Origin: a virus
Lineage: Duplodnaviria; Caudoviricetes
IMG/VR virus record: IMGVR_UViG_3300032087_004351
Span: 1 to 58,489 of that record
DNA length: 58,489 nt
Direction: 5' to 3' (one strand)
The position numbers were made by a program, and so were the translations under genes. Shown piece after piece: positions 12,013-39,952 of the stretch. Position 1 is the stretch's first letter. Each line of letters begins with the position of its first letter. The notes beneath the pieces are model-generated. The model was not told the DNA's origin, did not search any database, and worked only from the letters and a program-made list of their open reading frames with translations.

Positions 12013-15000
12013 ATGGCTAAAACCAACAAAGAGTACTTGGAAGGCCTCGAAGGTCAGGACCAATCTTTTTTTTTTAGGAGAAGATTCAACGGAGGTTTCA
12101 AACTCGGGTTCTCCTTCAGGCGGGACTTCATCGGGATCTACCTCGAATTCCCAAAAAGAACCTATAGGTTCGGATATTCAACTTCTTGACGTTAGCACTA
12201 TACCTCCTAATGTATGGAAGTTAATTTCAAACTCTCCTCATCCGACATATTACAGTCCTGACAGACGTCCCAACGATCCAGCTAACGACGTAACCCCTCA
12301 AGAATTTACGTCGTATCAGGAAGAGGGGGATGAGCCGTTCTACTTCGATTCAAATGCCTCTAATCTTGATAAGTGGTCGCCAGACAACCCAGGAGGCGTA
12401 AGCCCTCTAAGTACCTTGGCCCCCGCTGAATATTACGCGGGAGCATGGAGCAGAACAACGATTCCAGCCTCCTTATATGTCGAAGAAGCGAAGTATTTAG
12501 ATGCAAAATTCAACATAGAGCCTCGTTCTGGTAGAAAATACCCTTACAAAGGCACCACAGGCGTTCTTAAAAATGGGACAATCATTCCAGACGCCATTGG
12601 CGACATATCTGTTCTAAACAACTTTCAATATGGAAGCCTCGAAGAATCTTTTGAGGATCACATGAAAGACGTAAAGGCCGAAATTCTACAGAAGGCAGAA
12701 GAGTTTCCTGACGACTTTAAACTTATGTCGGAAGAAGATCAGAGGGCTTGGGTTGCTAATAGGCAGGTCAAGTTAGAAAGCATGTGGAATAATGCGTATG
12801 ACGAATGGGACATTAATGTGCAGCAACCTGTACTTAAGCAAATAGAAAATGTTAACGCAAACGTCCAGCTTCAAAATACATGGAGCCCAGAAGTCATAAA
12901 TGCACTGTTCAGAGTTTCCGATCCAGAGTCCGTGGAAGAGGCTTTTGGTGGCGACACAATAGACTTTAGTAAGTTGCGACCTAGAACAGGCGTAGGAGAA
13001 TTTAAATTTTCAGAAGATGCGCCTGGGATACCTATACCTCAGGTCACTGTAAATATTCCAGGATTTGGAATAACAAACAATGTGGGCCTTTCTCTGAATG
13101 ACTTTTTTGCGGGTTCAGATCAGGAGTTACCTCAACAAATGTTTGAGCCTGTGTACGGGGACGTAAGATCGCTTCAGATCGTAGACAGAGAAGAGCGTAG
13201 AGCAAGACCTACAGACCAAATTGGAGTTATAGGGTCTAAACTAACAGAAGAAGGTAAAAAGTGGTTCGAAAAATGGGTTGACCCTAGAGCTGAAAAATAC
13301 ACTCAACAGGCATTGTCACAGGCGGATTCGATGTACAGGAATTCGTGGTATAGAGGAGGACTTCTTGGGATGCTAGAAAAAACCATTGAAAGAAATGTTC
13401 ATCCAAGAAGTATTGACCCATACGAGACTGGCGGTGGTGAAGCGGGAAATATAGTTCGGCCAGCCGACCCCCGTCTCCAGGGGGAAGGCGACCGCGCAAG
13501 GTCTAAACAAGCACGTGATATAGAAAAGGAATTTTTCAATGCGCTAGAGACTTTAGGCAAAGCTCTTCGTCCAGAAATTGAAACCAATAGAAAAGATTGG
13601 GATAATATATACTCGTCGGCTTATATAGATTACGCTAAAAAAGTTCTTCCATCCATCCGCGCCTACACAAACCAGACAAAATACGGACTCGAAAATGTTT
13701 CTAAGGAAACTGCGATGAAGTTTTTAATGGATCACGTTGTGCCTGAGACACTTCCAGCGAACTTTGAATCTATAAAAGATAGACAGGATATAAAATCTAT
13801 TTTTGGCCGAACTTCTTTAGGCAAATATGATGACTTTGTTCAGACTGAAACATATAGAAAGTTCTATGAAAAAGAGCAAAGCTCTGCCTCGTCATACAAC
13901 GCAGCCATCAACGCCAGTGTTAACAATAAGAAGGAATTCTTAGTCGATCAAAATGGCAATGTTTCCGCAGAAACTCTTTTTCAATTTGAAAGCGGGGTTT
14001 ATACTTTAGAAGAACTATTATCTTTTGACGATAGTGCTTATGGAGATAGTATCGACGTAATTCCTGTAGAATATGGGGATCATGTAAAGAAAAGTTCTAG
14101 AGAGTTTATATTCCATCAAATGCTAGAGAAGCGAGCGAAAAATAAACTGGCAGCTCAATACGGTAGAACAATGGAGTATGGGGAACATGAGGGCACTGAC
14201 GTTTACGACCAGCTTATTTTCGTCGAGGACCCATACGTATCTGGTCATTATCTCAACACTTCAGATTATTCGTACTTTAAGGACTTAGAAGAGAAGATTT
14301 ATTTTGACATGCTCAAAGATGATCAGGGATCCCTGATGTCTCTTTATTTTAATTCAGACGGAGTAAAGCTTATGCTCGACGACTCGGAGACGGTCGGAGA
14401 GAGAAATAGCAGGTGGAGCGAGATTAAAACAAACTTGAGCCAAGGGGTCGGAGACCTTCAAAGCTCTTTGGATGCTTGGAATTCAAATTCACGAATAGGC
14501 CTTGAAGAAAGTGGTTTTGCCAATGTGATCAGGAGCAACCCTCTCACGGCGCCCCTTGAGCCTTTGGCATTGATGTCGGAAGTTACGTGGAGAAGCGATG
14601 AAGAGCTAAAAGCAAGCAGGGAAAGATATTACTATCGAGAGTACTACAGAAACCTAGAAAATAGAGCTATTGACCTGAAGAAAAACAAGCTAGCCAATAC
14701 AGCTTCTATGCTTCACGCATACGGCCAAACTGCGTTAGCGAACGATGCCGATTACCTTGAAGACCTAGAGGGAATTGCATCAAGGGTCTCGTGGGATAAC
14801 GAGTGGAATGAATATATACTTCCTAGCGTTAGGTCTCTGCCTACAACTGCCGCTGCTATGGCGGCAGGTGCCGTTACAACTGTTGCAACAGGCGGAAACA
14901 CAGTAGCAGGAGCCCTTGTTGCTGGCGGATTTATGTATAACACAGTTGGGTCTAAGTGGTATTTGGACTCATACTTAGACCCCAACAAAGATTGGATGGA

Positions 15001-18000
15001 TGATGGGTTTTGGGGTAATCGAATGATGACCGCTAGAGGAATGGGGGCCGCTGAAGGCGCAGGTGAATTTGCGCAATTCCTTTTACTTGGTAGCGCAGGT
15101 ACAATCGTTAAGTATTCAGGATTAGGCTCAGTTTTACCTAAGGCTGCAACCAGGGGGGTTGCAGACAGATTTATAACTAGGGTTATAAACGGAGAGCTGC
15201 AGATTGCAGAAAGATCGGCTTTTCAGCTTTTTCAGGATGTAACTATCGGAGGGCTGACGTATCAGGGTGTAAACGCTGTTGGAGAGGCCATCGCCGAAGG
15301 CTCAACGGGTGGCTTACAGTATGTATTAGAGCAATATGCTACAAAACAACCTATAGACGCGGGAGAGTTTTGGGACCGCGTTGCTCACGATGCGAAAATA
15401 GGTGTATACTCGTCATTTATAATATCTGGTGGCAGCCTCTCGGTTCAGAACGGCACGGCGGCGATTATGAGTCAAATAGATCCAAATTCATATTTAGGTC
15501 AAAAATATCAAGCAAAACAAAGGGCAAGAGTTATTGACTCAATAATTCAAAATGGAGAGCTTTACGGAGTCAGAAACGCTCAGCAAGCAAAATCCCTAAG
15601 AGACGCGATGAAAAGTCTTAGGGAGTCTCTTGACGGCAGAGACGTTCAGGTCTCCAAAGACGAATTGGCTAAAATTCTTTCTGGCGAACCGTCAAAAGCC
15701 ATAGCTCTTACAGAGGAAGAGCAAAAATATATGATCCGAATAAAGGCCCTTCTTTCAGAAGTTACAGCGGCGAAGGGCGTTGAAGGATCTGTATATCAGC
15801 TTCTTATGGATCAGGGTAGATATGACTTAGTTGCAGAGCAAATAGCAAGAGACAACCTAAATCAATTTTATGAATTTGCTCTTTCTTTTGATGAAAGAGG
15901 CATTACTATAGATGGAAATGGTGCGGCGAGAACAGCAGACGGAAAACTAGCCACTGGATATGGCTCAAGGCTGGACTCTATTCTCGGAAAGCTTTCTGAA
16001 GAAGAAAGACAGAAGTACACAGAGGGAAAGAAGGCAAATGACTTGGCCACCAAGATATTAAAGGCGCAGGCAAGGACTAATGCCTCTAGGATTTTAGGCC
16101 TAAATGTAGTCAATCCATATAGAGGCACGCTAGAAAAACAATCCGAAAACCCTTCAAGTGGGTTTGTCTTGACTGCTGACTCTGATGGTAACGTGGCAGA
16201 AGTTGATCCAAGCCAGCTCGACGGCATGGACTCACGGCGAATTGGGCTGATTGAGGTTGCTGCTCAGTTTGTGGCTGATGCAGAAGGACGGGTTAGGGTT
16301 ATAGTTCACACAGACAGGTCAAGCTTTGTAAAAGCGACTAGAAGTGAGGTTGGTGCTGGAGCTTACTTTGAAGCCACTCAAGAGCAGCGTGAGCAAGGGA
16401 TGCAAGATGAAGTCCATATACTTATGGATGAGAAAACTTCTGAAGGGGACATCACTAGAGCTTTGGTTCACGAGCTCGGTCACTTCAAGTTTCAGGCGCT
16501 CGTAAACAATAGAAAAACAAGAAAAGAGCTGTACGGTAAGATTTTAGAAATAGCTCAAGAGACCAACAAGAAAGGAGAGTTTGTCAATCCTTTTGTTGCT
16601 TCGCTTGTAGCTACAGTTCTAGAAGAGTACGGAGAGGCTGGATACGATGAAGTAGCGCTCGAAAAAGAAGTAATTAACCACTTTGTTCAGTCTCTGGCTG
16701 CTGGACTACATACAGACGAGGGTATGCTTAACGTGTTTGTAGACCAGATAGGTCGCAAACACATCAGAAAGTCTGACGCCTTGAAAGCGGTGCTTGATTT
16801 CTCTGAATACGTAAGTAAAACAGCAGGTGAATACGTTTCATTCAGTAAGTCGGAGTTTGAGCAAGCAAAAATGCACGAGCAACAAGAGCAACAAGCTCAA
16901 GAGATGGAGTTTACAGAGGCGGATGAAGGAGTAAACGAACCCAATCCTAACAACCAAGAGGCCATGGAGTCTCGTAAGTTCAGCAAGCCGTTTACTTACC
17001 TGCAGAACACAAAGCTGCAATACTCGTTTAATGAGATGGATTATAGCGTACGAGGTGCTTTGTTCCCCGTGCAGAGAACCATGACGGTGACGGTAAAGGA
17101 TTACAACCACTTTAGAAACCTTTATGCAAAGCTTACTGGAAACGGCGCTGCTCCTGGCCGTATGACCGACATAGTATACTTCAAGGACGGTAAGGCATAC
17201 AAGGTCAATCCGCCTAAGCCCAAGTTGGACAGGGAGACGGGGGAACCGATTATTATGGAGGTTCCAAAGTACAAGGGGTGGCAAGCAAGACAGATTGAGC
17301 AGATGGAGGCTGAGGTTGCGGGTAAGCTTCACATTGTTCGAAACCTAGACGCACTGCAAAGACAATTCCATCAGTCATTTAATAACTCGATAGTAAGCAA
17401 ATACGCAAACTCAGAGGCATTTTTCCCGTACGAAACATACTCTTTAGAAACTTTCAACAAGATGTCTGCTGCAGAGAAAGCAGTTATCGTTGAAGCGGCT
17501 TTAGCAAACCTTAATGCTTTCTTTGAGATGGGACTCACCGTAGAGGAGATAGAGTCTAGGGCAGAACAGCCAGGGTCTCCTCTTCAGTCTCCTTGGCTTG
17601 ACGTAAAGAAAAACCTAGACATATTTAATGCAGCGAACAACAAGGTAGAGACTAGGGCTGAAAAGAAAGCTAAGCTTCAAGAAGGCGTTGAGCGCCACGG
17701 CGTAGCACCGTGGCAGCTCATGCCGAAAGACTCTATGGCTTATGAAAGAAGGAGGGTAAACTTTGCTCTCTTGTCAAATGAGGATCTAAATTACGCGCTT
17801 CAAGAACTTAAAAAGCTTGACAGCGGCAGATCTATGGACGGCCCACTTATGCCTCTTCAGTCTATCAAGATCGGATCCCTGGACGGATCCTCGAAGGCCG
17901 ATAAGCGGAGAGTTCCAAAAAAACATGTTGGAAAAGACGGCCTTATTAAAGGGGTTCCAGAGGTCAATCAAGCAAAGCACCTTCTTGAGGCGGTAAAGAA

Positions 18001-21000
18001 GCACGTTATGCGACTTAATCCAACGCTCTCCGAGGGAGATGCGCTTCAAGCAGCATTAGTGGCTATTGAAAAAGCTTCGTTTACTACTCACAACATTGAT
18101 TTGACTAGAGATGGGGTGATTGAATTCAAAATGTCATTTAAGGGTGTTGACGGAAAAACATACACGACGACATTTAGATCAAATCAAAGGCTTGCAGACG
18201 GAACGCTTAGAGAAGTCACTGGTCTTGCTGGAGGGCCGCGAGGCGCTATCGGCAGACCTAACGAAGTACACTCTAATACCTCGGAGCAAGCTCAAAAAGA
18301 AATTATAACAAACGCCAGAAAGGTTCAACAGTCGGACTCTACTGAACACTATGTGTTGCTTCTTAGAGCCCTTACTGCAGAAAACTCCTTTAAGAATCCG
18401 CTCACGTCTGTAATACTCATAGATTCTATGCTTCAAACTATTGAAGAGTTTGGAGATGTGAAGGTTAAAGACGGAAGCAGAACGATCACTGTGAAACAAA
18501 AGGTCGCAGAGGTGCTTCAGCAGTACATGGAAAAAGTCCACTCTACCGAAGAGTGGATTGAAATAGAGACAAAATATCTAGACGGAACGGATGAAGTTTT
18601 AGACCCGTCTAAGTTTACACTGACTGTTTGGGAGAATTCGTATCAGAACAAGATAAACACCAATGTTCCAGGTCTTTCTCAGAAGAACAACATGGTTCAG
18701 ATTACCGAGGAGGGCGTCATTAGCTTCCTGACTCAGTTAAAAGAGATTGCCCCAACGTCAGGATTCGGGTTTGGCGCTCGGGGTGATTTCATCGCACGAG
18801 TTCTTGGTCCTCAAGTAGGGCTGTCTAAGATAGGCTTTGTCTCAAAGGAGTCTTTTCTTGAGTCTATAAACGACCCACTGTTTAGTGACGCTCAGCCAGG
18901 AGACGTTGTTGCGGCTTCATTTGTAAATATGTCTACAGATGCTGACGGCAACTCTCTTGTAAAGCCTGTAAACGTAAGAGACACTGTAACAAAGGCTAAA
19001 AGCAAAAACATATCGTATGAATACGGAGTCGAGGGGTCGGCTGGGTTTTATGTTCTGGGGGCATTTTTGAGCCCAACTGAGCTGGGTGTAGAGTTTACTC
19101 CTAGAGCTAGAATGACGGCCCTAGCTAAGTTGTCAGGCGCTCAAGAAGGTTCTCTGGCCGCTGAGTCTAGAAGGCTTCGTGGTAGAATTTACGTTGAGGG
19201 AGCAACTTCTTGGGAGCAGTCAACTGCTACTCACTACGGCAACATGATTGCCACTCTTTCTAGAAAGCTCCAAGACAAGTATTCTGACTTACTTCTTCTT
19301 CAGCAGGATATCGAAACGTTTAGAAAGGAGAAGCTCCCAGAGTCTCAAGACTTTGAGATGCACATGAACCTGTACTACGGCAAACTTAGAACAGACCTTG
19401 AACTAGTTGAGAAAATCCTGGACAATGTAAACAAGCTTTCTTCCAAGCGCGGAATAAAGGCAAGCGATCTTTCAGATTTCTTGTATGCGATGCACGCTAG
19501 AGAGCGTAACGCACACATAGCTAAGCAGAGGCCAGAAATTCTTGACGGCTCTGGTATGTCAGATGAGATGGCAGAAGAGATTTTAAATGAGCTCGATTCG
19601 CCAGAAATGAGAGAAGTAGCGGCGGAGGCGATGAAGTTAGTGTCGTTAACCAGACAATACATGGTTGAGGGTGGACTAGAAAAGAGGTCAACCATAGAGG
19701 CTTGGGAGGCTATGTACGAACACTACGTGCCTCTCAATGGACTGGCAGAAGACGAGTTTGACGGCGAGACGAACTCATACCCAAGCGGAGGAGCAGGCAT
19801 GGCTATTTATGGTCCGTCTTCAAAGAAAGCTAGGGGAAGATCTTCAAAGACTGGGGTAAACATCTTGGGTAGCATGGCCATGCAGACTGCTGCGGTGATG
19901 CAACGCGCAAGAAAAGACCAAGCAATGCTTTCTCTCTACAGGATGGCCGAAAACAATCCTAACGAAAATGTTTGGTCTGTACACGGACCAGGCAACAGAC
20001 TCACCGTTATGGGTCAGGAGCTTAGCGATGAGGCTATGAGAAACAGGAATGACGTTGTTCCGCTTAGGATCAACGGAAGGCAGCACTTTATCAGGTTTAA
20101 AAACGAAAACCACGCGAAGGCTCTCAAGGGTATGACCACTGAGCAGCTTAACTTCGTGACAAGGTTGTACAGCAAATATTCTACGTTCCTAAGAAATTCA
20201 TTTACGGTATGGAACCCATCGTTCTTCTTGCCTAACTTCATTCGAGATGTGCAGTCAGCATTGTTCAACGCTGCCGCTGAAATAGATAGAGAAGGGGGTA
20301 TTCTTGAAGGTATGGGTCTTACTGCAACAGAGTTCAATAAAAAACTCATGGGCACGACACTGTCCGCCTTGATGTCTCTGTTGGGCAAGGCATCTCTTGG
20401 GCTCAATATGAATGCAGAAATGCAGGGCTATGTAGATGAGTGGATGGCTGCTGGTGGAAGAACGGGCTGGTCTTATTCTGACACGCTGAATAAAGTTGTT
20501 TCAGATCTTAACGACAAATCAAGAGGTAGAACTAAAGCTGGAGCACGACTTGGTAAGGCTTGGGGATGGACTGTCGGCGGTGTCGCTTCTTACGTAGAGG
20601 GTATCAACGAAGCGTTTGAAAACTCGATAAGACTTGCCGCGTATATCGAAGCTAGAAAGGCTGGTGCTACAAAAAACAGAGCGGCAGAGCTGTCAAAGAA
20701 CATCACCGTAAACTTCAACAAGTCTGGAGAAGTCAGCCCGTCGATAAACGCCATGTACTTGTTCTTTAACGCAGCAATGCAAGGTGTTGACAGGTTTGGA
20801 CAGACGTTCATGACGCAGAAAAGAAAGGTTCCTAAGACTGAAAACAACCCAGACGGAGGAGGAAGAAGGGGTATTACAGCCGCTCAGAAGATGGGGGTTG
20901 GGATGGTTGGGATTTCATTTGCGCAGACAGTCTTTAATATTCTTATGTCAGGAAGAGATGACGACGACGAACTGTATTACAAGAAGGACATACCAGACTA

Positions 21001-22057
21001 CAGAAAGCAGAGAAACTTTGTCATCTTTACTGGACAAAGAGACAACGTCCAAGTACCTCTTCCTTATGGAATAAACATTTTCTCAAACGTAGGGATGACG
21101 CTGGCAGAACTTTGTTTTGGCATTACCGATGTAGACGATGCGGCCTTGTTCTTGGCGATATCTGCCAACTCATCGTTCAACCCTATTGCGTTTGGGCATG
21201 GAGATAATGTTGGCTCTTATGCTGCAACTACACTTTCGCCTACATTCCTAAAGCCATTCGTAGAAGTTGCAATGAATGAGACGTATTTCGGAACCCCAGT
21301 ATACAGAGAGCAGTACGATTTTGGAACTGAAGTGCCAGAATACACGCTCTCTTATAGAGCTCCAGAGTGGATGGTTGAGATAAACAAGGCGCTAAACGAA
21401 GCTAGCGGAGGCAAAGAGTATATAAGCGGGGATATGGACTTTAATCCAGATCCTATATACTACCTCATACAATCGATGCTTGGAGGCTCTGGTAAGTTCT
21501 TCTCAGAAACATTTGATCTTGGCTACACTGGATACAAGGTCATAGAAAATGCCATTAACGAAACGGATGAAAACACTGGATTCCTTGAGGCCCTTGAGAA
21601 AACAGAGAAGCCAAAGCTGAGAAGAAGCGATATACCTATCCTCAAACTTATATACGCAGATCCCAACCGATTCTATGACTTTGACTTGTTTGAGAAAAAC
21701 AGCAAAGAAGTCAGGCAGTATAGAAATCAGGCGGACAAATATCTTGAGCAAAAAACAGATGATGTCGAAGGATTGGACTTCACTGGAATTGGAAACAAAG
21801 AAGAGGGACTCATTAAAGAACTCAACGATACAGAGGCAATACTACAAGACATTAGAAATCTTCGCGTTGCTGTAAGAAATTCAGACCTTAACTACATCGA
21901 AAAAAATAACGTACTATATGACCTTGACGTAGAGGAGTCAAAGACAGTCGTGTACTTTAACGCCAAGTACTATGAACTTAGAGGGCAGTACATTGATCCA
22001 CGCCCAACAGGACTTATCTCCGAAAAGGAACTTAGAAAAGCATTTGGAGTAGAATGA
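12013..22057 (+). CDS. Giant polyvalent/ejection protein (~3347 aa), frameshifted at T10 (12066-12075); HExxH zincin-like motif and LPD38-like C-terminus
   Basis: ATG 12013 is one base out of frame with the long frame, which is open from 12002 to 22057; 'LVHELGHF' motif; 'KNITVNFNKSG...YLFFNAAMQG' resembles LPD38. Confidence 0.7.
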
Positions 22058-33587: not shown

Positions 33588-33743
33588 TTAAAAGTTCTTA
33601 TGGAGGTACCCCGACAACATCAGTTGTTGTTTCACGTCTGAGGTTGGCGTCTTGAGGATTTTGCGTACACCCTCGTCTTCTGAGGCGAGCACGGGATCGA
33701 TATTGTATTGTTCGCAAAGGAACATGAAGTCATTGATTTTCAT
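33588..33743 (-). CDS. Small hypothetical protein (51 aa, not in ORF track)
   Basis: MKINDFMFLCEQYNIDPVLASEDEG...; start overlaps the stop of 33740..34387. Confidence 0.55.
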   Translation of the reverse strand: MKINDFMFLCEQYNIDPVLASEDEGVRKILKTPTSDVKQQLMLSGYLHKNF

Positions 33744-34387
33744 GATTCAAAGGTTACATTTTTGTCTAACCAATCTTTAAGGTCGTCGGCTACGTGGAAC
33801 GGGTTGTCGTAGCTATCAGACCCCTTGGGCTTGGGGATACGGAAAGCGTGCATCACGTAGTCGTCAACGTCGATGAAGGCGTGCTGGCGGTAGTACACAT
33901 CCGAGATGAAGTCCGTGAGCTGCTCAAGGTTGTTGATGGCATCTGTCGTGGTGTCCATGACATCACTTGATACACGAGCCACAAGTGACATACACAGAGG
34001 GGTGTAGTCCCATGCTTGGGTGGCTTCGAGTTGATTCCACGTCAACCAACATGACTCGGTAGACTCACCTCGGTTGGACATATCAAGCTCGATGACTTGG
34101 AATACCTCGACACTAACGTCGTCGCCATACTCTGCCACGTATTCGTCGTGGGTCATGTCTGACGGGACGCAAGCCTTGTAGTTGTCGTAGTCACGAGTCA
34201 TCGTGACGTACACCGCATCTTCGGTTGCGTGGTCGATGAGTACGCACATATCATCCTTGCGGTAGTCGTCAAGGATTTGAGCGATGTGTCTGTCTGCGAA
34301 ACCCCGCTTGGGGAAGAACTCGCAGGTGGTGTCGGAGTACCCTTCAAAGAGTCCTGCGACGGCGTGGATTACTGCATATTGTTTCAT
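33740..34387 (-). CDS. Hypothetical early protein
   Basis: 215 aa, preceded by the CAAACTTCAA leader motif. Confidence 0.65.
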   Translation of the reverse strand: MKQYAVIHAVAGLFEGYSDTTCEFFPKRGFADRHIAQILDDYRKDDMCVLIDHATEDAVYVTMTRDYDNYKACVPSDMTHDEYVAEYGDDVSVEVFQVIELDMSNRGESTESCWLTWNQLEATQAWDYTPLCMSLVARVSSDVMDTTTDAINNLEQLTDFISDVYYRQHAFIDVDDYVMHAFRIPKPKGSDSYDNPFHVADDLKDWLDKNVTFES

Positions 34388-34418: not shown

Positions 34419-34481
34419 AAGGGAGGTTGGGATTCGAACACAACTGCCATCCGTAGATGTACGCACCGACTGCGCTCCCTT
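34419..34481 (-). ncRNA. tRNA-like element lacking an anticodon loop
   Basis: AAGGGAG/CUCCCUU 7-bp outer stem; CGCA-GUCGG-UGCG arm; CAUC-UACG-GAUG arm; T-arm with GUUCGAAUC. Confidence 0.65.
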
Positions 34482-34534
34482 GATTGAGGTGGGGGTGTAG
34501 TGACGTTTCACCAAGCACCCCCGATGGTCAAACT

Positions 34535-34678
34535 TCAATCAACCAAATCCTCTTGTTCGTCTTGCCACTTGTCGTAGGCATCATCGACTGCGTTGTTCAA
34601 CGCCTCCGCCTCTGCTCGATCGATTGGTTGGCCGAACATCTCAAATATTTTCATCACTTCTTTTACAGGGTCTTTCAT
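34535..34678 (-). CDS. Small acidic protein (47 aa, not in ORF track)
   Basis: MKDPVKEVMKIFEMFG...EDLVD; ATGA-coupled to the upstream gene. Confidence 0.5.
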   Translation of the reverse strand: MKDPVKEVMKIFEMFGQPIDRAEAEALNNAVDDAYDKWQDEQEDLVD

Positions 34679-35813: not shown

Positions 35814-35876
35814 GAGAGGTGTTGTATATATACTCTCTTCACTACGTTCAGAGAGAGTATATATACTAACACTCTC
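35814..35876 (-). repeat. Long hairpin element, copy 1
   Basis: 33-bp core 35829-35861 is identical to 37083-37115; flanked by inverted arms. Confidence 0.9.
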
Positions 35877-36206: not shown

Positions 36207-36377
36207 TTATTGATTATCAACAACCTTGAAGCTGGTTGTCTTCACGGTCTGACTTGTGCCCAGCCACTTGTTTCGAGCTAGGTCTTTAGCCAACGCAAGG
36301 TGTTCAGCGTAGATGAAGTGCTCGGTCCAATCGTCGCGGTCACGGCCTCTGTAGGTAATGTATCTGTATTTGTTCAT
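36207..36377 (-). CDS. Hypothetical early protein
   Basis: MNKYRYITYRG..., ATGA-coupled to the upstream gene. Confidence 0.55.
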   Translation of the reverse strand: MNKYRYITYRGRDRDDWTEHFIYAEHLALAKDLARNKWLGTSQTVKTTSFKVVDNQ

Positions 36378-36739
36378 TTGAGTCTGATTTCTTCGTTGTT
36401 CCAAAGGTCGTAGATGGCAATCTCGTCGCGGTCCTTGCCCAAGGCGATCGCCTCTGCGCGGTCCTGCACGATGTCAGAGAGTTCGAGGTATGCAAATCCG
36501 TCGTTGTCAACCCATCCTCCGACGAGGAGCCGAGAAGCCTTGCCTCGTGCCTGCTCACGAAGATGAGCCATGATGTCGTAGGCAAAATCGTTCCAAGACA
36601 ACCTATCTGCCTTGACCGTGTAGCACTTGGACGCTCCGCCCACTGCGAAGCCACCACCTTCGTATGTGCTCAGGTCGTGCTTGACGCTGAACCCGTCCCA
36701 TGCTTGAATCTTGAAGTATAGCTCTTGAAGTTTGTTCAT
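36374..36739 (-). CDS. Hypothetical early protein immediately downstream of the hammerhead ribozyme
   Basis: MNKLQELYF...GGWVDNDGFAYLELSD...AIYDL; ATG follows the leader motif. Confidence 0.65.
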   Translation of the reverse strand: MNKLQELYFKIQAWDGFSVKHDLSTYEGGGFAVGGASKCYTVKADRLSWNDFAYDIMAHLREQARGKASRLLVGGWVDNDGFAYLELSDIVQDRAEAIALGKDRDEIAIYDLWNNEEIRLK

Positions 36740-36758
36740 CGTAAATGAATTGAAGTTT

Positions 36759-36812
36759 GACATAGACACCACCTTCGTGGTGTTTCGCGCACTCAGCGCT
36801 CATCAGTATGCC
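36759..36812 (-). ncRNA. Hammerhead ribozyme (type I topology)
   Basis: GGCAUA-CUGAUGA-GCGC-UGAGU-GCGC-GAAA-CACCAC-GAAG-GUGGUG-UC^UAUGUC: complete catalytic core, three stems and a GUC cleavage triplet. Confidence 0.93.
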
Positions 36813-36879
36813 TGCTCTCGAAGTAGTGGAGGACTACGCAAAGGATAGCCGCCCCGTAAATGACATACAAGTATGTCAT
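36793..36879 (-). CDS. Small single-TM peptide (28 aa, not in ORF track) overlapping the ribozyme
   Basis: MTYLYVIYGAAILCVVLHYFESRHTDER; ATGA-coupled to the upstream ORF. Confidence 0.55.
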   Translation of the reverse strand: MTYLYVIYGAAILCVVLHYFESRHTDER

Positions 36880-37025
36880 CGTGTTCCGATTAAATCGGCC
36901 AAGGTCATCTGTTCATCGCACGTCAGCTCGTCCCACTCGCTGGTGGACGTGATGGCGCTGAAGGGGAGAGAAGAGTCAAGGAGTTCAGCAATAAGCTGAC
37001 GGCGTGTATCTGCAAAGGTTTGCAT
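36876..37025 (-). CDS. Small early protein (49 aa)
   Basis: MQTFADTRRQLI... directly after the leader motif. Confidence 0.55.
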   Translation of the reverse strand: MQTFADTRRQLIAELLDSSLPFSAITSTSEWDELTCDEQMTLADLIGTR

Positions 37026-37066: not shown

Positions 37067-37129
37067 AGAGTGTCTTAGTATGTATACTCTCTTCACTACG
37101 TTCAGAGAGAGTATACATACAAGACCTCT
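37067..37129 (-). repeat. Long hairpin element, copy 2
   Basis: Same 33-bp core as copy 1; outer arms differ in sequence but still pair. Confidence 0.9.
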
Positions 37130-38998: not shown

Positions 38999-39952
38999 AT
39001 GGCAAAAGCTAGAAGAAAACTACGCAGACAGTTGATGAAGAAAGCCAAGAAAGGCTATCTGACTCCTGGTGAGCGTGAAGACTTGATGCAGCTCGACAGA
39101 GAGGTAAACAAAGCGAACAGACAGGCCGCCGCTGTAGGTGTACCTGCATTGGCTACGGCACTTGCCATAGCGTCTAAAAGCAATATGTATCAAGATTGGA
39201 GGTTTCAAAAGGATCTTGAGGAGGCGATTGAGAAGGGATTTATTAGTGTAGCTGACGATGATGAAGCTACCCCTAAAGAAGCGCCTACTGATGAAGCTAC
39301 CCCTAAAGAAACTCCTGAAGGTGTCTCTGACACCACCCCAACCGAAGGAAGTATTGATGATCAATTAAGAGGTATTCAGGAAAAAAACAATAAAAAGTTT
39401 ACTAGACCAGACTTTGTTCCTAGTAAACGTGACGAAGAGGAAGAAGATTATTTTGAAAAAGAAGCACTTCAGATACGTAGGGAGATGGATCGCTATTCGA
39501 ATTGGCCATACACGCCTGGAACTGAAGAACGACTTGGCGATATGAGCGGTGAAGAGTTAGCTCAAATGATGGCAATAAGGGAAACGGGACCGTATAATCT
39601 TCGCCCAGAAGAAGAAGATAAGTATCTTGACTATCTAGGCCTTGGTCAAGATCAGAGCAAGCCCCGCCCAACAAAAATGCAAAGGAGAATGATGAGGCGC
39701 GGATTTGATCCTGTAGAAGGTGAGTTTTATTCGAAAGAGTCTAATCCTGTTATGATTGGCTCACCTCGCCCAGAATCAAGACTAAAAGAACCCGAAATGC
39801 GTACACCTCCTTTTTCTCAAATGCGACCAGGCCAAGGAGAGGATATTATGGACCCTAACTTCGGCCAAATGCCGCAGAAAACGGGTGGGTATACACCGTT
39901 TCTCTCAAGCTTGAGAAACAAATTCCAAAAAAGACTTACAGGTAAAAGATAA
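38999..39952 (+). CDS. Hypothetical late protein, low complexity
   Basis: 317 aa; internal 22-bp duplication at 39259-39280 and 39289-39310 (DEATPKE twice). Confidence 0.6.
   Translation: MAKARRKLRRQLMKKAKKGYLTPGEREDLMQLDREVNKANRQAAAVGVPALATALAIASKSNMYQDWRFQKDLEEAIEKGFISVADDDEATPKEAPTDEATPKETPEGVSDTTPTEGSIDDQLRGIQEKNNKKFTRPDFVPSKRDEEEEDYFEKEALQIRREMDRYSNWPYTPGTEERLGDMSGEELAQMMAIRETGPYNLRPEEEDKYLDYLGLGQDQSKPRPTKMQRRMMRRGFDPVEGEFYSKESNPVMIGSPRPESRLKEPEMRTPPFSQMRPGQGEDIMDPNFGQMPQKTGGYTPFLSSLRNKFQKRLTGKR

What the first reader, a model, noticed from the sequence alone, without database searches (positions are those of the whole stretch)
36759..36812. Canonical hammerhead ribozyme inside the phage early operon
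Seen: the - strand reads GGCAUA CUGAUGA GCGC UGAGU GCGC GAAA CACCAC GAAG GUGGUG UC^UAUGUC. All conserved core nucleotides are present, with stem I (6 bp, one G-U), stem II (4 bp), stem III (6 bp plus the core A-U) and a GUC triplet. It is in the sense orientation of the early genes. Established: such cores self-cleave after the triplet, leaving 2',3'-cyclic phosphate and 5'-OH ends. Inference: a cut between 36765 and 36764 would split the early polycistron and give gene 36374..36739 a 25-nt 5'-OH leader made almost entirely of the shared leader motif. Hammerheads are known in phages, but their role there is largely unexplained.
Basis: partly seen in the sequence, partly recalled or inferred. 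Interest (0 to 1): 0.92.

Follow-up and report, generated by a model that had tools for sequence, protein, structure and literature searches.

The report
Hammerhead ribozyme before a phage gene
A genuine, evolutionarily conserved self-cutting hammerhead RNA sits just upstream of a small gene in a marine Flavobacteriia phage, where it most likely trims the long message so that the gene starts with a short standard leader; phage hammerheads are already known, but this family offers a good handle on what they are for.

Summary
The - strand at 36812..36759 is a complete type I hammerhead. It is the only one in this 58,489-bp complete phage genome, and 0 of 300 shuffles gave one.

It belongs to a family. 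I found 67 copies (49 distinct) in the 49 related viral loci searched. All have an intact core, and three stems pair in 763 of 763 cells, with compensatory changes at 8 of 17 pairs. No Rfam hammerhead model reaches its threshold.

Almost every copy is fused to the leader motif CAAACTTCAA. Cutting would leave a 25-27 nt, G-poor, unstructured 5'-OH leader.

Homologous genes in relatives carry a long hairpin or a tRNA-like element in place of the hammerhead. This suggests interchangeable RNA-processing modules. Cultured relatives also carry such hammerheads: Flavobacterium phage elemoE and Cellulophaga phage phi18:3.

Cleavage and transcription were not shown; RNA contigs were uninformative. Perreault et al. 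2011 already proposed hammerhead processing of phage polycistrons.

The scan noted look-alikes on other DNA before (e1-6316795, e1-6198889). Verdict: new member of a known kind.

The parts
36759..36812 (-). Complete type I hammerhead ribozyme. Stem I is open; stems II and III are capped by 5-nt and 4-nt loops.
   Evidence: Sequence. The MFE fold is the hammerhead junction. Own covariance model R1 gives 73.3 bits, though the window is in its training set. The descriptor finds 1 site here and none in 300 shuffles.
36800..36806 (-). Catalytic core strand CUGAUGA (C3-A9)
   Evidence: C3, U4, G5, A6, G8 and A9 are invariant in 67 of 67 family copies; N7 is U or C.
36783..36786 (-). Core GAAA (G12, A13, A14, A15.1)
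   Evidence: invariant in 67 of 67 copies. The search pattern fixed these bases.
36764..36765 (-). Predicted scissile bond, 3' of C17 (36765) and 5' of U1.1 (36764)
   Evidence: Position follows from the hammerhead numbering applied. U16.1 and C17 were not fixed by the search pattern and are invariant in 67 of 67 copies. Cleavage itself was not tested.
36740..36764 (-). Predicted 25-nt 5'-OH leader of the downstream gene. It contains the shared motif CAAACTTCAA at 36759-36750, whose first C is the last base of stem I.
   Evidence: There are 8 exact motif copies on the - strand between 34399 and 37897, and 21 matches with at most 1 mismatch in the window against 6.9 expected. Family leaders are 25-27 nt in 48 of 55 copies, 7.3% G, with A at -3 in 42 of 54.
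36374..36739 (-). Downstream gene, 121 aa, function unknown
   Evidence: No Pfam hit; weak match to phrog_17808 of unknown function. Homologues at 74% identity in L001 and L002. In this gene family 23 members are led by a hammerhead and 3 by a long hairpin.
36876..37025 (-). Upstream gene, 49 aa, whose message would be separated from the downstream gene by the cut
   Evidence: Translation. In this gene family 29 members are led by a long hairpin, 6 by a hammerhead and 2 by weak structure. No terminator-like site lies between it and the hammerhead.

Best explanation
This is a functional cis-acting type I hammerhead ribozyme, transcribed as part of the - strand small-gene (putative early) message of a lytic podovirus-like phage of marine Flavobacteriia. 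When it folds it cuts itself after C17, between 36765 and 36764. The upstream RNA keeps nearly the whole ribozyme as a structured 3' end with a 2',3'-cyclic phosphate. The downstream gene 36374..36739 receives a 25-nt, G-poor, unstructured leader with a 5'-OH end, the same standard leader that other genes of the cluster carry. The likely purpose is to uncouple the cistron from whatever lies upstream, in a host whose ribosomes do not use Shine-Dalgarno pairing and are sensitive to structure near the start codon. It probably also sets the stability of the two products. In this phage group the hammerhead is one of several interchangeable structured modules placed before the same leader. The others are long hairpins, probably RNase III sites, and tRNA-like elements, probably RNase P or RNase Z sites. 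Shown here: the motif, its conservation and covariation, its fixed fusion to the leader, and its exchangeability with other elements. Inferred: cleavage in vivo, co-transcription, early timing, the nucleases acting on the other modules, and the effect on translation or stability.
For: 1. Complete core and three stems; the MFE fold is the hammerhead.
2. One site in the window against none in 300 shuffles.
3. A viral-contig scan fixed only the two core strands and the leader. It returned 47 stretches on 46 contigs, which gave 61 hits when L002 and the window are included. In the 47 distinct sequences all 763 cells of 17 pairs are standard pairs. Eight pairs have changes on both sides (102 cells). 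The covariation score is 0.333 against 0.110 in shuffles (0 of 500 reach it), and slid registers pair at only 26-51%.
4. Model R1 finds 67 copies in 49 related loci (432,549 bases), up to 4 per locus. All 67 have an intact core, including U16.1 and C17, which the pattern did not fix.
5. A at -1 is invariant in 58 of 58 copies, and the loop II end positions are U in 57 and 58 of 58 copies. None of these positions was fixed by the search pattern. This is the kind of conservation expected for a tertiary contact. A at +1 is also invariant in 58 of 58, but the leader pattern fixed it in most copies.
6. The cut-to-ATG distance is 25-27 nt in 48 of 55 copies. Leaders are 7.3% G against 24.2% in the genome, have A at -3 in 42 of 54, and have a median MFE of -2.8 kcal/mol. 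Flavobacterium lacks SD use and tunes initiation by structure and A-3 (PMC6847099, abstract).
7. Exchangeability: L002 has a hammerhead with different but pairing stems before the orthologous gene, while L001 has a long hairpin there. Of 13 gene families with hammerhead-led members, 5 also have members led by other elements.
8. No terminator-like or promoter-like signal lies between the flanking genes. There is no Bacteroidota-type TAnnTTTG box on the - strand between 31081 and 43764, whereas + strand genes have TATATTTG boxes. This fits one long message.
9. More distant cultured relatives also carry a type I hammerhead in a block of small same-strand genes. Elemovirus NC_055854.1 scores 49.7 bits and has a CAAACTTTAA leader. 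Cellulophaga phage phi18:3 scores 29.5 bits, and its hammerhead lies four genes upstream of ardA.
10. Precedent: Perreault et al. 2011 showed hammerheads flanking prophage genes that cleave in ~2 kb transcripts, and a halovirus hammerhead 13 nt before an early gene whose mapped 5' end lies within 3 nt of the cut site (PMC3088659, passages).
Against: 1. No experiment or read data here shows cleavage or even - strand transcription at the site.
2. No Rfam hammerhead family reaches gathering score on the window or on 12 related loci.
3. Stem I is only 6 bp. I found no convincing covarying tertiary contact between loop II and the flanks, so fast cleavage at cellular Mg2+ is not assured.
4. The R1 score for the window is circular, because the window is in the training alignment.
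5. The family was collected with a pattern that demanded the leader, so 'always fused to the leader' is partly built in. Only about 6 of the 67 copies were found without it.
6. This genome has a single hammerhead, while its other leaders follow other elements or little structure. Cutting is therefore not a general requirement for expressing leader-led genes.
7. 'Early' is inferred from gene size, position and orientation only.
8. Two of the five Cellulophaga and Tenacibaculum relatives tested have no match at E <= 1, two have only weak matches (E 0.03 and 0.07), and the nearest GenBank record MW202828.1 has none.
Confidence: 0.8

Rival explanations
1. The hammerhead plus leader mainly marks a recombination boundary, a mobile regulatory cassette like the PeSL motifs of T4-type phages. 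Repeated structured-element and leader junctions let small early genes be shuffled between phages, and cleavage is secondary or incidental.
For: The same leader and a small set of elements flank many different small genes: 34 gene families, with 5 of the 13 hammerhead-containing families led by more than one element type. One RNA-library contig of a relative joins 35823 to 34412, skipping 1410 nt, with its ends at an element/leader boundary. PeSL cassettes are documented (PMC2839356 and PMC4122927; search listing and abstract starts only).
Against: A recombination linker needs sequence identity, not an RNA fold. Here the stems vary freely while pairing is kept in 763 of 763 cells, and the catalytic core is invariant. 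That pattern shows selection on the ribozyme itself. The two readings are not exclusive.
Confidence: 0.08
2. The ribozyme serves the upstream gene rather than the downstream one. It makes a defined, structured 3' end with a 2',3'-cyclic phosphate that protects, or times the decay of, the upstream message. The position before the leader is a by-product.
For: After cleavage almost the entire ribozyme, with stems II and III, stays on the upstream fragment. Long hairpins that replace it in relatives could equally act as 3' stabilisers. Reviews consider effects of ribozymes in 3' UTRs (PMC6765202, passage).
Against: The distance to the downstream ATG is tightly fixed (25-27 nt in 48 of 55 copies), and stem I overlaps the leader motif by one base. 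The distance to the upstream stop varies: 63 nt in the window against 8 nt in L002. The element is therefore anchored to the downstream gene.
Confidence: 0.08
3. The hammerhead acts in trans on many sites, a one-ribozyme, many-targets system as proposed by earlier notes of this scan for other phages. It would cut at the GUC that precedes the other leader copies.
For: Several other leader copies are preceded by GUC or AUC. Earlier notes e1-6237059, e1-6200246 and e1-6240230 describe such arrangements in other genomes (unchecked).
Against: Within 3 mismatches, no - strand site in the 33.5-38 kb small-gene cluster other than its own matches the arms of this hammerhead. No strand combines the complement of the leader with a CUGANGA core beyond chance (33 matches against 24.6 expected; 6 of 100 shuffles do as well; none on the early strand near a stem II/GAAA). 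The motif is a complete cis ribozyme.
Confidence: 0.02
4. It is a chance match or a decayed, inactive relic.
For: Rfam models do not reach threshold.
Against: None of 300 shuffles gives a match. The core is invariant and compensatory changes occur across 49 distinct copies.
Confidence: 0.01

Closest known systems
Hammerhead ribozymes flanking genes in prophages and phages, and the halovirus HF1/HF2 hammerhead before an early helicase gene (Perreault et al. 2011, PMC3088659; passages read)
   Same: A cis hammerhead lies in an intergenic spacer of a phage polycistron, a few tens of nt or fewer before a start codon. Relatives of the window carry 2-4 copies flanking single small genes. The proposed role is cutting long phage transcripts into gene-length mRNAs.
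   Different: Here the ribozyme is fused in fixed register to a conserved leader motif. The hosts are SD-blind Flavobacteriia. The ribozyme is exchangeable with long hairpins and tRNA-like elements before homologous genes. The window has only one copy. I could not see that paper's supplementary alignments, so members of this family may already be listed there.
Type I hammerheads of Rfam (RF00163 and related families; RF03152 RAGATH-1-hammerhead)
   Same: Same core, same three-way junction, same open stem I topology.
   Different: No Rfam family reaches gathering score. The best is RF03152 at 18.1 bits against 56.3. Stem I is a bare 6-bp helix flanked by invariant A residues, and loop II is U-N-N-N-U. 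The known loop-bulge or pseudoknot contacts are absent.
RiboJ-type ribozyme insulators of synthetic biology (named from recall; only a search listing of papers that use RiboJ was seen)
   Same: A hammerhead placed upstream of a coding region cuts off the variable upstream RNA. The gene then always has the same short 5' leader with a 5'-OH.
   Different: RiboJ is engineered from a plant satellite ribozyme and carries an added hairpin before an SD site. This element is natural, has no SD, and is followed by an unstructured C/A/U-rich leader.
RNase III processing sites between T7 early genes (recalled textbook knowledge; no call)
   Same: Structured elements between cistrons of a phage early polycistron would give each gene its own message. 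The long hairpins that replace the hammerhead in relatives resemble such sites.
   Different: The hammerhead needs no host nuclease and leaves 5'-OH and 2',3'-cyclic phosphate ends rather than 5'-phosphate and 3'-OH.
Type I hammerheads in 5' UTRs of RNA mycoviruses whose self-cleavage enables translation initiation (Lopez-Galiano et al. 2026, PMC13725137; abstract read)
   Same: A type I hammerhead lies in a viral 5' leader, and cleavage is linked to translation of the downstream ORF.
   Different: Those are eukaryotic RNA viruses using cap-independent initiation. This is a dsDNA phage with bacterial initiation.
PeSL promoter/stem-loop cassettes of T4-type phages (PMC2839356, PMC4122927; listing only)
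   Same: Repeated short regulatory cassettes lie before many small early genes of unknown function, in a plastic genome region.
   Different: PeSLs are promoter-terminator DNA motifs. Here the element is a catalytic RNA under selection for its fold.

Membership tests
Hammerhead ribozyme class | Conserved core: C3 U4 G5 A6 N7 G8 A9, G12 A13 A14, the A15.1-U16.1 pair, and H17 (not G) at the cleavage site | tested here: met
   All present in the window and invariant in 67 of 67 family copies.
Hammerhead ribozyme class | Three helices radiating from the core, supported by covariation, with G10.1-C11.1 closing stem II | tested here: met
   763 of 763 cells pair. 8 of 17 pairs have changes on both sides. 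G10.1-C11.1 is GC in 47 of 47 sequences. Slid controls pair at 26-51%.
Hammerhead ribozyme class | Type I topology: stem I open, stems II and III closed by loops | tested here: met
Hammerhead ribozyme class | Site-specific self-cleavage giving 2',3'-cyclic phosphate and 5'-OH ends | not testable with these tools
   Only contigs of two runs could be laid, and they gave no usable cover at 36618-36818.
Hammerhead ribozyme class | Tertiary contact between stem I and stem II or loop II, as in fast natural hammerheads | tested here: inconclusive
   A(-1) and A(+1) are invariant, and loop II has U at both ends (58 sequences). No covarying pairing between loop II and the flanks was found.
Rfam hammerhead families (RF00163, RF00008, RF02275, RF02276, RF02277, RF03152) | Bit score at or above the family's gathering score | tested here: not met
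   None at gathering score in the window or in 12 related loci holding many copies. In E-value mode the only hit is RF03152, at 18.1 bits against 56.3, E 1.5.
Clustered gene-flanking hammerheads of prophages (Perreault 2011) | Two or more hammerheads close together, flanking single genes or short gene blocks | tested here: not met
   Only one copy in this complete genome. Relatives do meet this feature, for example 4 copies in the 2,980-bp locus L049 and 3 in L041.
Trans-acting split hammerhead (earlier notes of this scan) | One catalytic strand whose arms match many substrate half-sites | tested here: not met
   No further target of the arms, and no enzyme strand aimed at the leader.

The most novel reading that the evidence does not exclude
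Marine Flavobacteriia phages may use a mix-and-match toolkit of RNA-processing modules, each fused to one universal Shine-Dalgarno-free leader. The modules are a self-cleaving hammerhead, long hairpins with conserved caps, and tRNA-like elements. Every small early gene would then be released as its own message with the same 5' end, and the hammerhead would be a natural, nuclease-independent equivalent of an engineered ribozyme insulator. In relatives where two hammerheads flank a gene, the excised RNA carries matching stem I arms in 8 of 15 distinct consecutive pairs. Such fragments could re-form a hammerhead across their ends and be ligated into circular mRNAs. This genome, with one copy, would show only the simple cut.
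Probability: 0.3. Interest if true: 0.7.

Novelty: new member of a known kind. Interest (0 to 1): 0.5.

Why it matters
The biological role of bacterial and phage hammerheads has stayed open since they were found in 2011 (PMC6765202, passage). This family gives unusually direct comparative evidence for a role. The ribozyme sits in fixed register before a standard translation leader. In homologous positions it is replaced by other elements that are likely nuclease sites. It also occurs in cultured phage-host pairs (Elemovirus with Flavobacterium sp. BAL314; phi18:3 with Cellulophaga baltica), where end mapping and mutants are feasible. In addition, current Rfam models miss a whole clade of marine phage hammerheads, and a RefSeq record annotates a spurious protein gene across one.

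Tried and rejected
1. Rfam at gathering score on the window and on 12 loci gave only tRNAs. In E-value mode only a sub-threshold RAGATH-1-hammerhead hit appeared.

2. blastn of the 4-kb region and of the 81-nt element against GenBank phages gave no match and only chance short matches, respectively.

3. Sequencing runs: one RNA-library run (X1) and one run of unknown kind (X2) each hold about a fifth of the sampled words. When laid as contigs at 88% likeness they give patchy, low cover. Depth in the bin 36618-36818 is 0.17 and 0.45, and no contig is listed across the site. This says nothing about transcription or cleavage.

4. A pseudoknot between loop II and the UUCA repeats of the leader is rejected. 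Loop positions 2-4 vary while the leader is fixed, and no complementary covariation was seen.

5. The trans-acting one-to-many hammerhead is rejected for this genome.

6. The in-frame AUG created by the stem I 3' arm, which would give a 1-nt-leader message, is rejected as general. Most family members have UGUAUC there, and in L013 the AUG runs into a stop out of frame.

7. Leader as a host promoter: no Bacteroidota-type -33/-7 pair occurs there (the consensus is recalled), and no TAnnTTTG box lies on the - strand in the cluster.

8. The 3213-aa virion protein as a recognisable RNA polymerase: only Pfam LPD38 and no PDB sequence match. Which polymerase makes the early message is unresolved.

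9. The genome-contig scan with the hammerhead-plus-leader pattern gave 3 stretches. None is a hammerhead by R1, so it yielded no prophage or host link.

10. A second weak R1 hit at 39287-39326 (+), 11 bits and E 1.3, lies inside an ORF and is treated as chance.

11. Literature: no paper holds 'hammerhead', 'ribozyme' and 'Flavobacterium phage' together. The searches found no description of this leader-fused family. Supplements, for example the alignments of PMC3088659, are closed and could hold members.

Full report
WHAT IS THERE

- Stem I is a 6-bp helix with one G-U.
- The core strand CUGAUGA follows.
- Stem II has 4 bp, is closed by G10.1-C11.1 and is capped by a 5-nt loop.
- GAAA follows.
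- Stem III has 6 bp plus the A15.1-U16.1 pair and a 4-nt loop.
- C17 comes next, then the 3' arm of stem I.

Stem I is open, so this is a type I hammerhead. The scissile bond lies between 36765 and 36764. The minimum-free-energy fold of the 62-nt stretch is this three-way junction (-21.7 kcal/mol, z -2.48). The junction is kept when 201 nt are folded.

A deliberately loose type I descriptor finds this one site in the window and none in 300 dinucleotide-preserving shuffles. Rfam does not help. No hammerhead family reaches gathering score. With permissive settings only RF03152 appears, at 18.1 bits against a threshold of 56.3.

THE GENOME

The window is a whole virus record of 58,489 bp with direct terminal repeats, rated 100% complete. 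Its terminase, portal and virion proteins match PHROG families.

The nearest cultured relatives by terminase are:
- Flavobacterium phages of the genus Elemovirus (39.5% identity);
- Cellulophaga phages phi13:2, phi18:3 and phi38:1 (34-35%);
- Tenacibaculum phage Gundel_1 (29%);
- crAss-like phages, as distant partial matches.

A BT4734-like primase-helicase domain also points to Bacteroidota. The host is therefore very probably a marine member of the Flavobacteriia.

Genes on the + strand are often preceded by TATATTTG, the Bacteroidota -7 box (consensus recalled). No TAnnTTTG lies on the - strand between 31081 and 43764. No terminator-like or sigma-70-like site separates the hammerhead from its flanking genes. 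This fits a long - strand message across the small-gene cluster. However, 'early' and 'polycistronic' remain inferences.

A CONSERVED FAMILY

The downstream 121-aa protein has two relatives at 74% identity on viral contigs.
- In L002 the orthologous gene is preceded by a hammerhead whose three stems differ from the window's but still pair.
- In L001 a long hairpin stands in the same place.

A scan of the viral collection fixed only the two core strands and the leader motif. It returned 47 stretches on 46 contigs, which gave 61 hits when L002 and the window are included.

In the 47 distinct sequences:
- all 763 cells of the 17 pairs are standard pairs;
- 8 pairs show changes on both sides (102 cells);
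- the covariation score is 0.333 against 0.110 in shuffles, with 0 of 500 shuffles reaching it;
- sliding the partners by 1-3 columns drops pairing to 26-51%.

The stems were not part of the search pattern, so this is independent evidence for the fold.

A covariance model built from 48 distinct copies (R1) gives these results:
- 67 copies in the 49 related loci, up to four per locus, with none in L001;
- only the one copy in the window, where the next best hit scores 12.6 bits at E 0.43. The window's own 73.3 bits are circular, because it is in the training set.

All 67 copies have an intact core, including U16.1 and C17, which the pattern did not fix.

The base before stem I is A in 58 of 58 copies. 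The first and last bases of loop II are U in 57 and 58 of 58. None of these positions was fixed by the search pattern. The base after stem I is also A in 58 of 58, but the leader pattern fixed it in most copies. The middle of loop II varies, and I found no covarying partner for it. A tertiary contact is plausible but not shown.

THE LEADER

The last base of stem I is the first base of the motif CAAACTTCAA. This motif occurs eight times exactly on the - strand between 34399 and 37897, each a few to 14 nt before an ATG.

Across the family:
- the cut-to-ATG distance is 25-27 nt in 48 of 55 copies;
- the predicted leaders hold 7.3% G against 24.2% in the genome;
- A stands at -3 in 42 of 54;
- the leaders are nearly unstructured (median -2.8 kcal/mol with the first 15 coding nt).

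Flavobacterium ribosomes do not use Shine-Dalgarno pairing. Initiation there is tuned by mRNA structure and by A at -3 (PMC6847099, abstract).

INTERCHANGEABLE MODULES

I found 207 distinct leader contexts in the window and loci. Of these, 179 have an ATG within 35 nt, an ORF of at least 30 aa, and enough flank; the rest were dropped.

Those 179 are preceded by:
- a long hairpin in 93 cases;
- a hammerhead in 50;
- weak structure in 30;
- an element with a T-loop motif in 6.

Their proteins fall into 34 families. Thirteen families have hammerhead-led members, and five of these also have members led by other elements.
- The family of the window's downstream gene has 23 hammerhead-led and 3 hairpin-led members.
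- The family of the upstream 49-aa gene (36876..37025) has 29 hairpin-led, 6 hammerhead-led and 2 weakly structured members.

In L010 a hammerhead is followed by a tRNA-like element (38.8 bits) and then a leader variant. The simplest reading is that these elements do the same job: each creates an RNA end just upstream of a standard leader. The hammerhead would do this by itself. The long hairpins would probably use RNase III and the tRNA-like elements RNase P or Z. These last assignments are inference from textbook knowledge.

MORE DISTANT, CULTURED RELATIVES

R1 gives the following on GenBank phage records.
- Flavobacterium phage vB_FspP_elemoE_6-9C (NC_055854.1, 16303-16362, - strand) has a type I hammerhead at 49.7 bits. 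It is followed by CAAACTTTAA and the ATG of gp66. The record annotates a 35-aa + strand protein across it.
- Cellulophaga phage phi18:3 (KC821620.1, 21903-21959, - strand) has one at 29.5 bits, E 7e-6. It has a complete core (CUGAAGA) and lies between gp050 and gp049, four genes upstream of ardA.
- Phages phi13:2 and phi38:1 and record MW202828.1 gave no match at E <= 1.
- Calle_1 and Gundel_1 gave only weak matches.

The scan of one genome per prokaryote species gave three pattern matches. None is a hammerhead by R1, so the module was seen only on viral DNA.

HOW IT MOST LIKELY WORKS

The ribozyme is transcribed within the - strand message, folds, and cuts after C17.
- The upstream RNA ends in stems II and III with a 2',3'-cyclic phosphate.
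- The downstream gene starts with a 25-nt unstructured 5'-OH leader.

I recall from published work, but did not check here, that 5'-OH ends escape 5'-monophosphate-stimulated decay. If so, the cut could set both translation and stability.

Rival readings are listed with their evidence in the rival explanations. They are a recombination cassette, a 3'-end stabiliser for the upstream gene, a trans-acting ribozyme, and chance. The first two are compatible with cleavage and are less well anchored by the fixed spacing to the downstream ATG. The last two are disfavoured.

COMPARISON WITH WHAT IS KNOWN

Perreault et al. 2011 (PMC3088659, passages) described hammerheads flanking genes in prophages. 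They showed cleavage in ~2 kb transcripts and proposed processing of long phage transcripts into gene-length mRNAs. They also noted a halovirus hammerhead 13 nt before an early gene whose mapped 5' end lies within 3 nt of the cut site. A 2019 review still calls the role unsettled (PMC6765202, passage). A 2026 paper links type I hammerhead cleavage in RNA-virus leaders to translation initiation in eukaryotes (PMC13725137, abstract).

The present element is thus a new member of a known kind. Four things appear to be new, as far as three literature searches can tell:
- the fixed fusion to a standard SD-free leader;
- the exchangeability with other structured elements;
- the failure of Rfam models to detect the clade;
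- the availability of cultured hosts.

Earlier first-reader notes of this scan describe look-alike hammerheads in two other genomes (e1-6316795, e1-6198889).

VERDICT

My confidence in a functional cis hammerhead that processes the message before the leader is 0.8. Novelty is 'new member of a known kind', and interest is 0.5.

Noticed in passing
window 37067-37129 and 35814-35876 (- strand); L001:2905-2960 and many loci: Long hairpins of about 15-20 bp carry a conserved cap (CUGAACGUAGUGA and variants). The cap could form tandem G.A pairs under a GNA triloop, with a 2-nt bulge, which is kink-turn-like. These hairpins precede the same leader and replace the hammerhead before homologous genes. 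Other cap types occur in relatives.
   Followed up: partly
window 34419-34481 (- strand); L010:7528-7596 (-): A tRNA-like element with a T-loop precedes the leader of gene 33740..34387. Neither ARAGORN nor Rfam calls it a tRNA. In L010 a tRNA-like element (38.8 bits) sits between a hammerhead and a leader variant.
   Followed up: partly
window 34526-34538 (+ strand): A single antisense copy of the leader motif lies beside a G-rich hairpin. The same arrangement recurs once per locus in at least eight related loci (L001, L003, L007, L008, L010, L042, L048 and the window), so it is conserved. Its role is unknown.
   Followed up: partly
L007:4330-4412 (+): A structured element ends in the same bases as the window's stem III and stem I 3' arm, directly before a leader. 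It lacks a hammerhead core and has no Rfam match at gathering score. It could be a different or degenerate ribozyme.
   Followed up: no
window 36793-36879 (- strand): A 28-aa ORF starts in ATGA overlap with the upstream gene's stop and ends at the UGA that begins loop II of the hammerhead. In L002 the upstream gene stops only 8 nt before the hammerhead and no such ORF exists, so it is not a conserved feature of the module.
   Followed up: partly
window + strand, e.g. 944, 11991, 38987, 40406, 45341, 46503, 49120, 52464, 57170: TATATTTG boxes stand just before + strand genes. None lies on the - strand between 31081 and 43764. The two gene sets may use different promoters or polymerases.
   Followed up: partly
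NC_055854.1 16289-16396 (locus L054:2290-2397): RefSeq annotates a 35-aa hypothetical protein (gp65) on the opposite strand across the Elemovirus hammerhead. This is probably a spurious gene call.
   Followed up: yes
window 34412 / 35823: One contig of RNA-library run X1 joins these two points, skipping 1410 nt with 16 other letters between. A relative appears to lack the intervening gene cassette, with its borders at a hairpin/leader junction.
   Followed up: no
L018, L030, L039, L043, L048, L049: In 8 of 15 distinct consecutive hammerhead pairs, the 5' end of the excised fragment (201-1126 nt) could pair fully with stem I of the next hammerhead. That geometry would allow self-ligation to a circle. 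Stem I diversity is low, so this may be chance.
   Followed up: partly
window 12416-22057 (+): A 3213-aa ORF matches only Pfam LPD38 (large polyvalent protein domain) and has no sequence match in the PDB. Its function is unknown.
   Followed up: partly
window 39287-39326 (+): A weak hammerhead-like match (CUGAUGA ... GAAAC ... GUC; 11 bits, E 1.3) lies inside ORF 38999..39952. It is probably chance.
   Followed up: no
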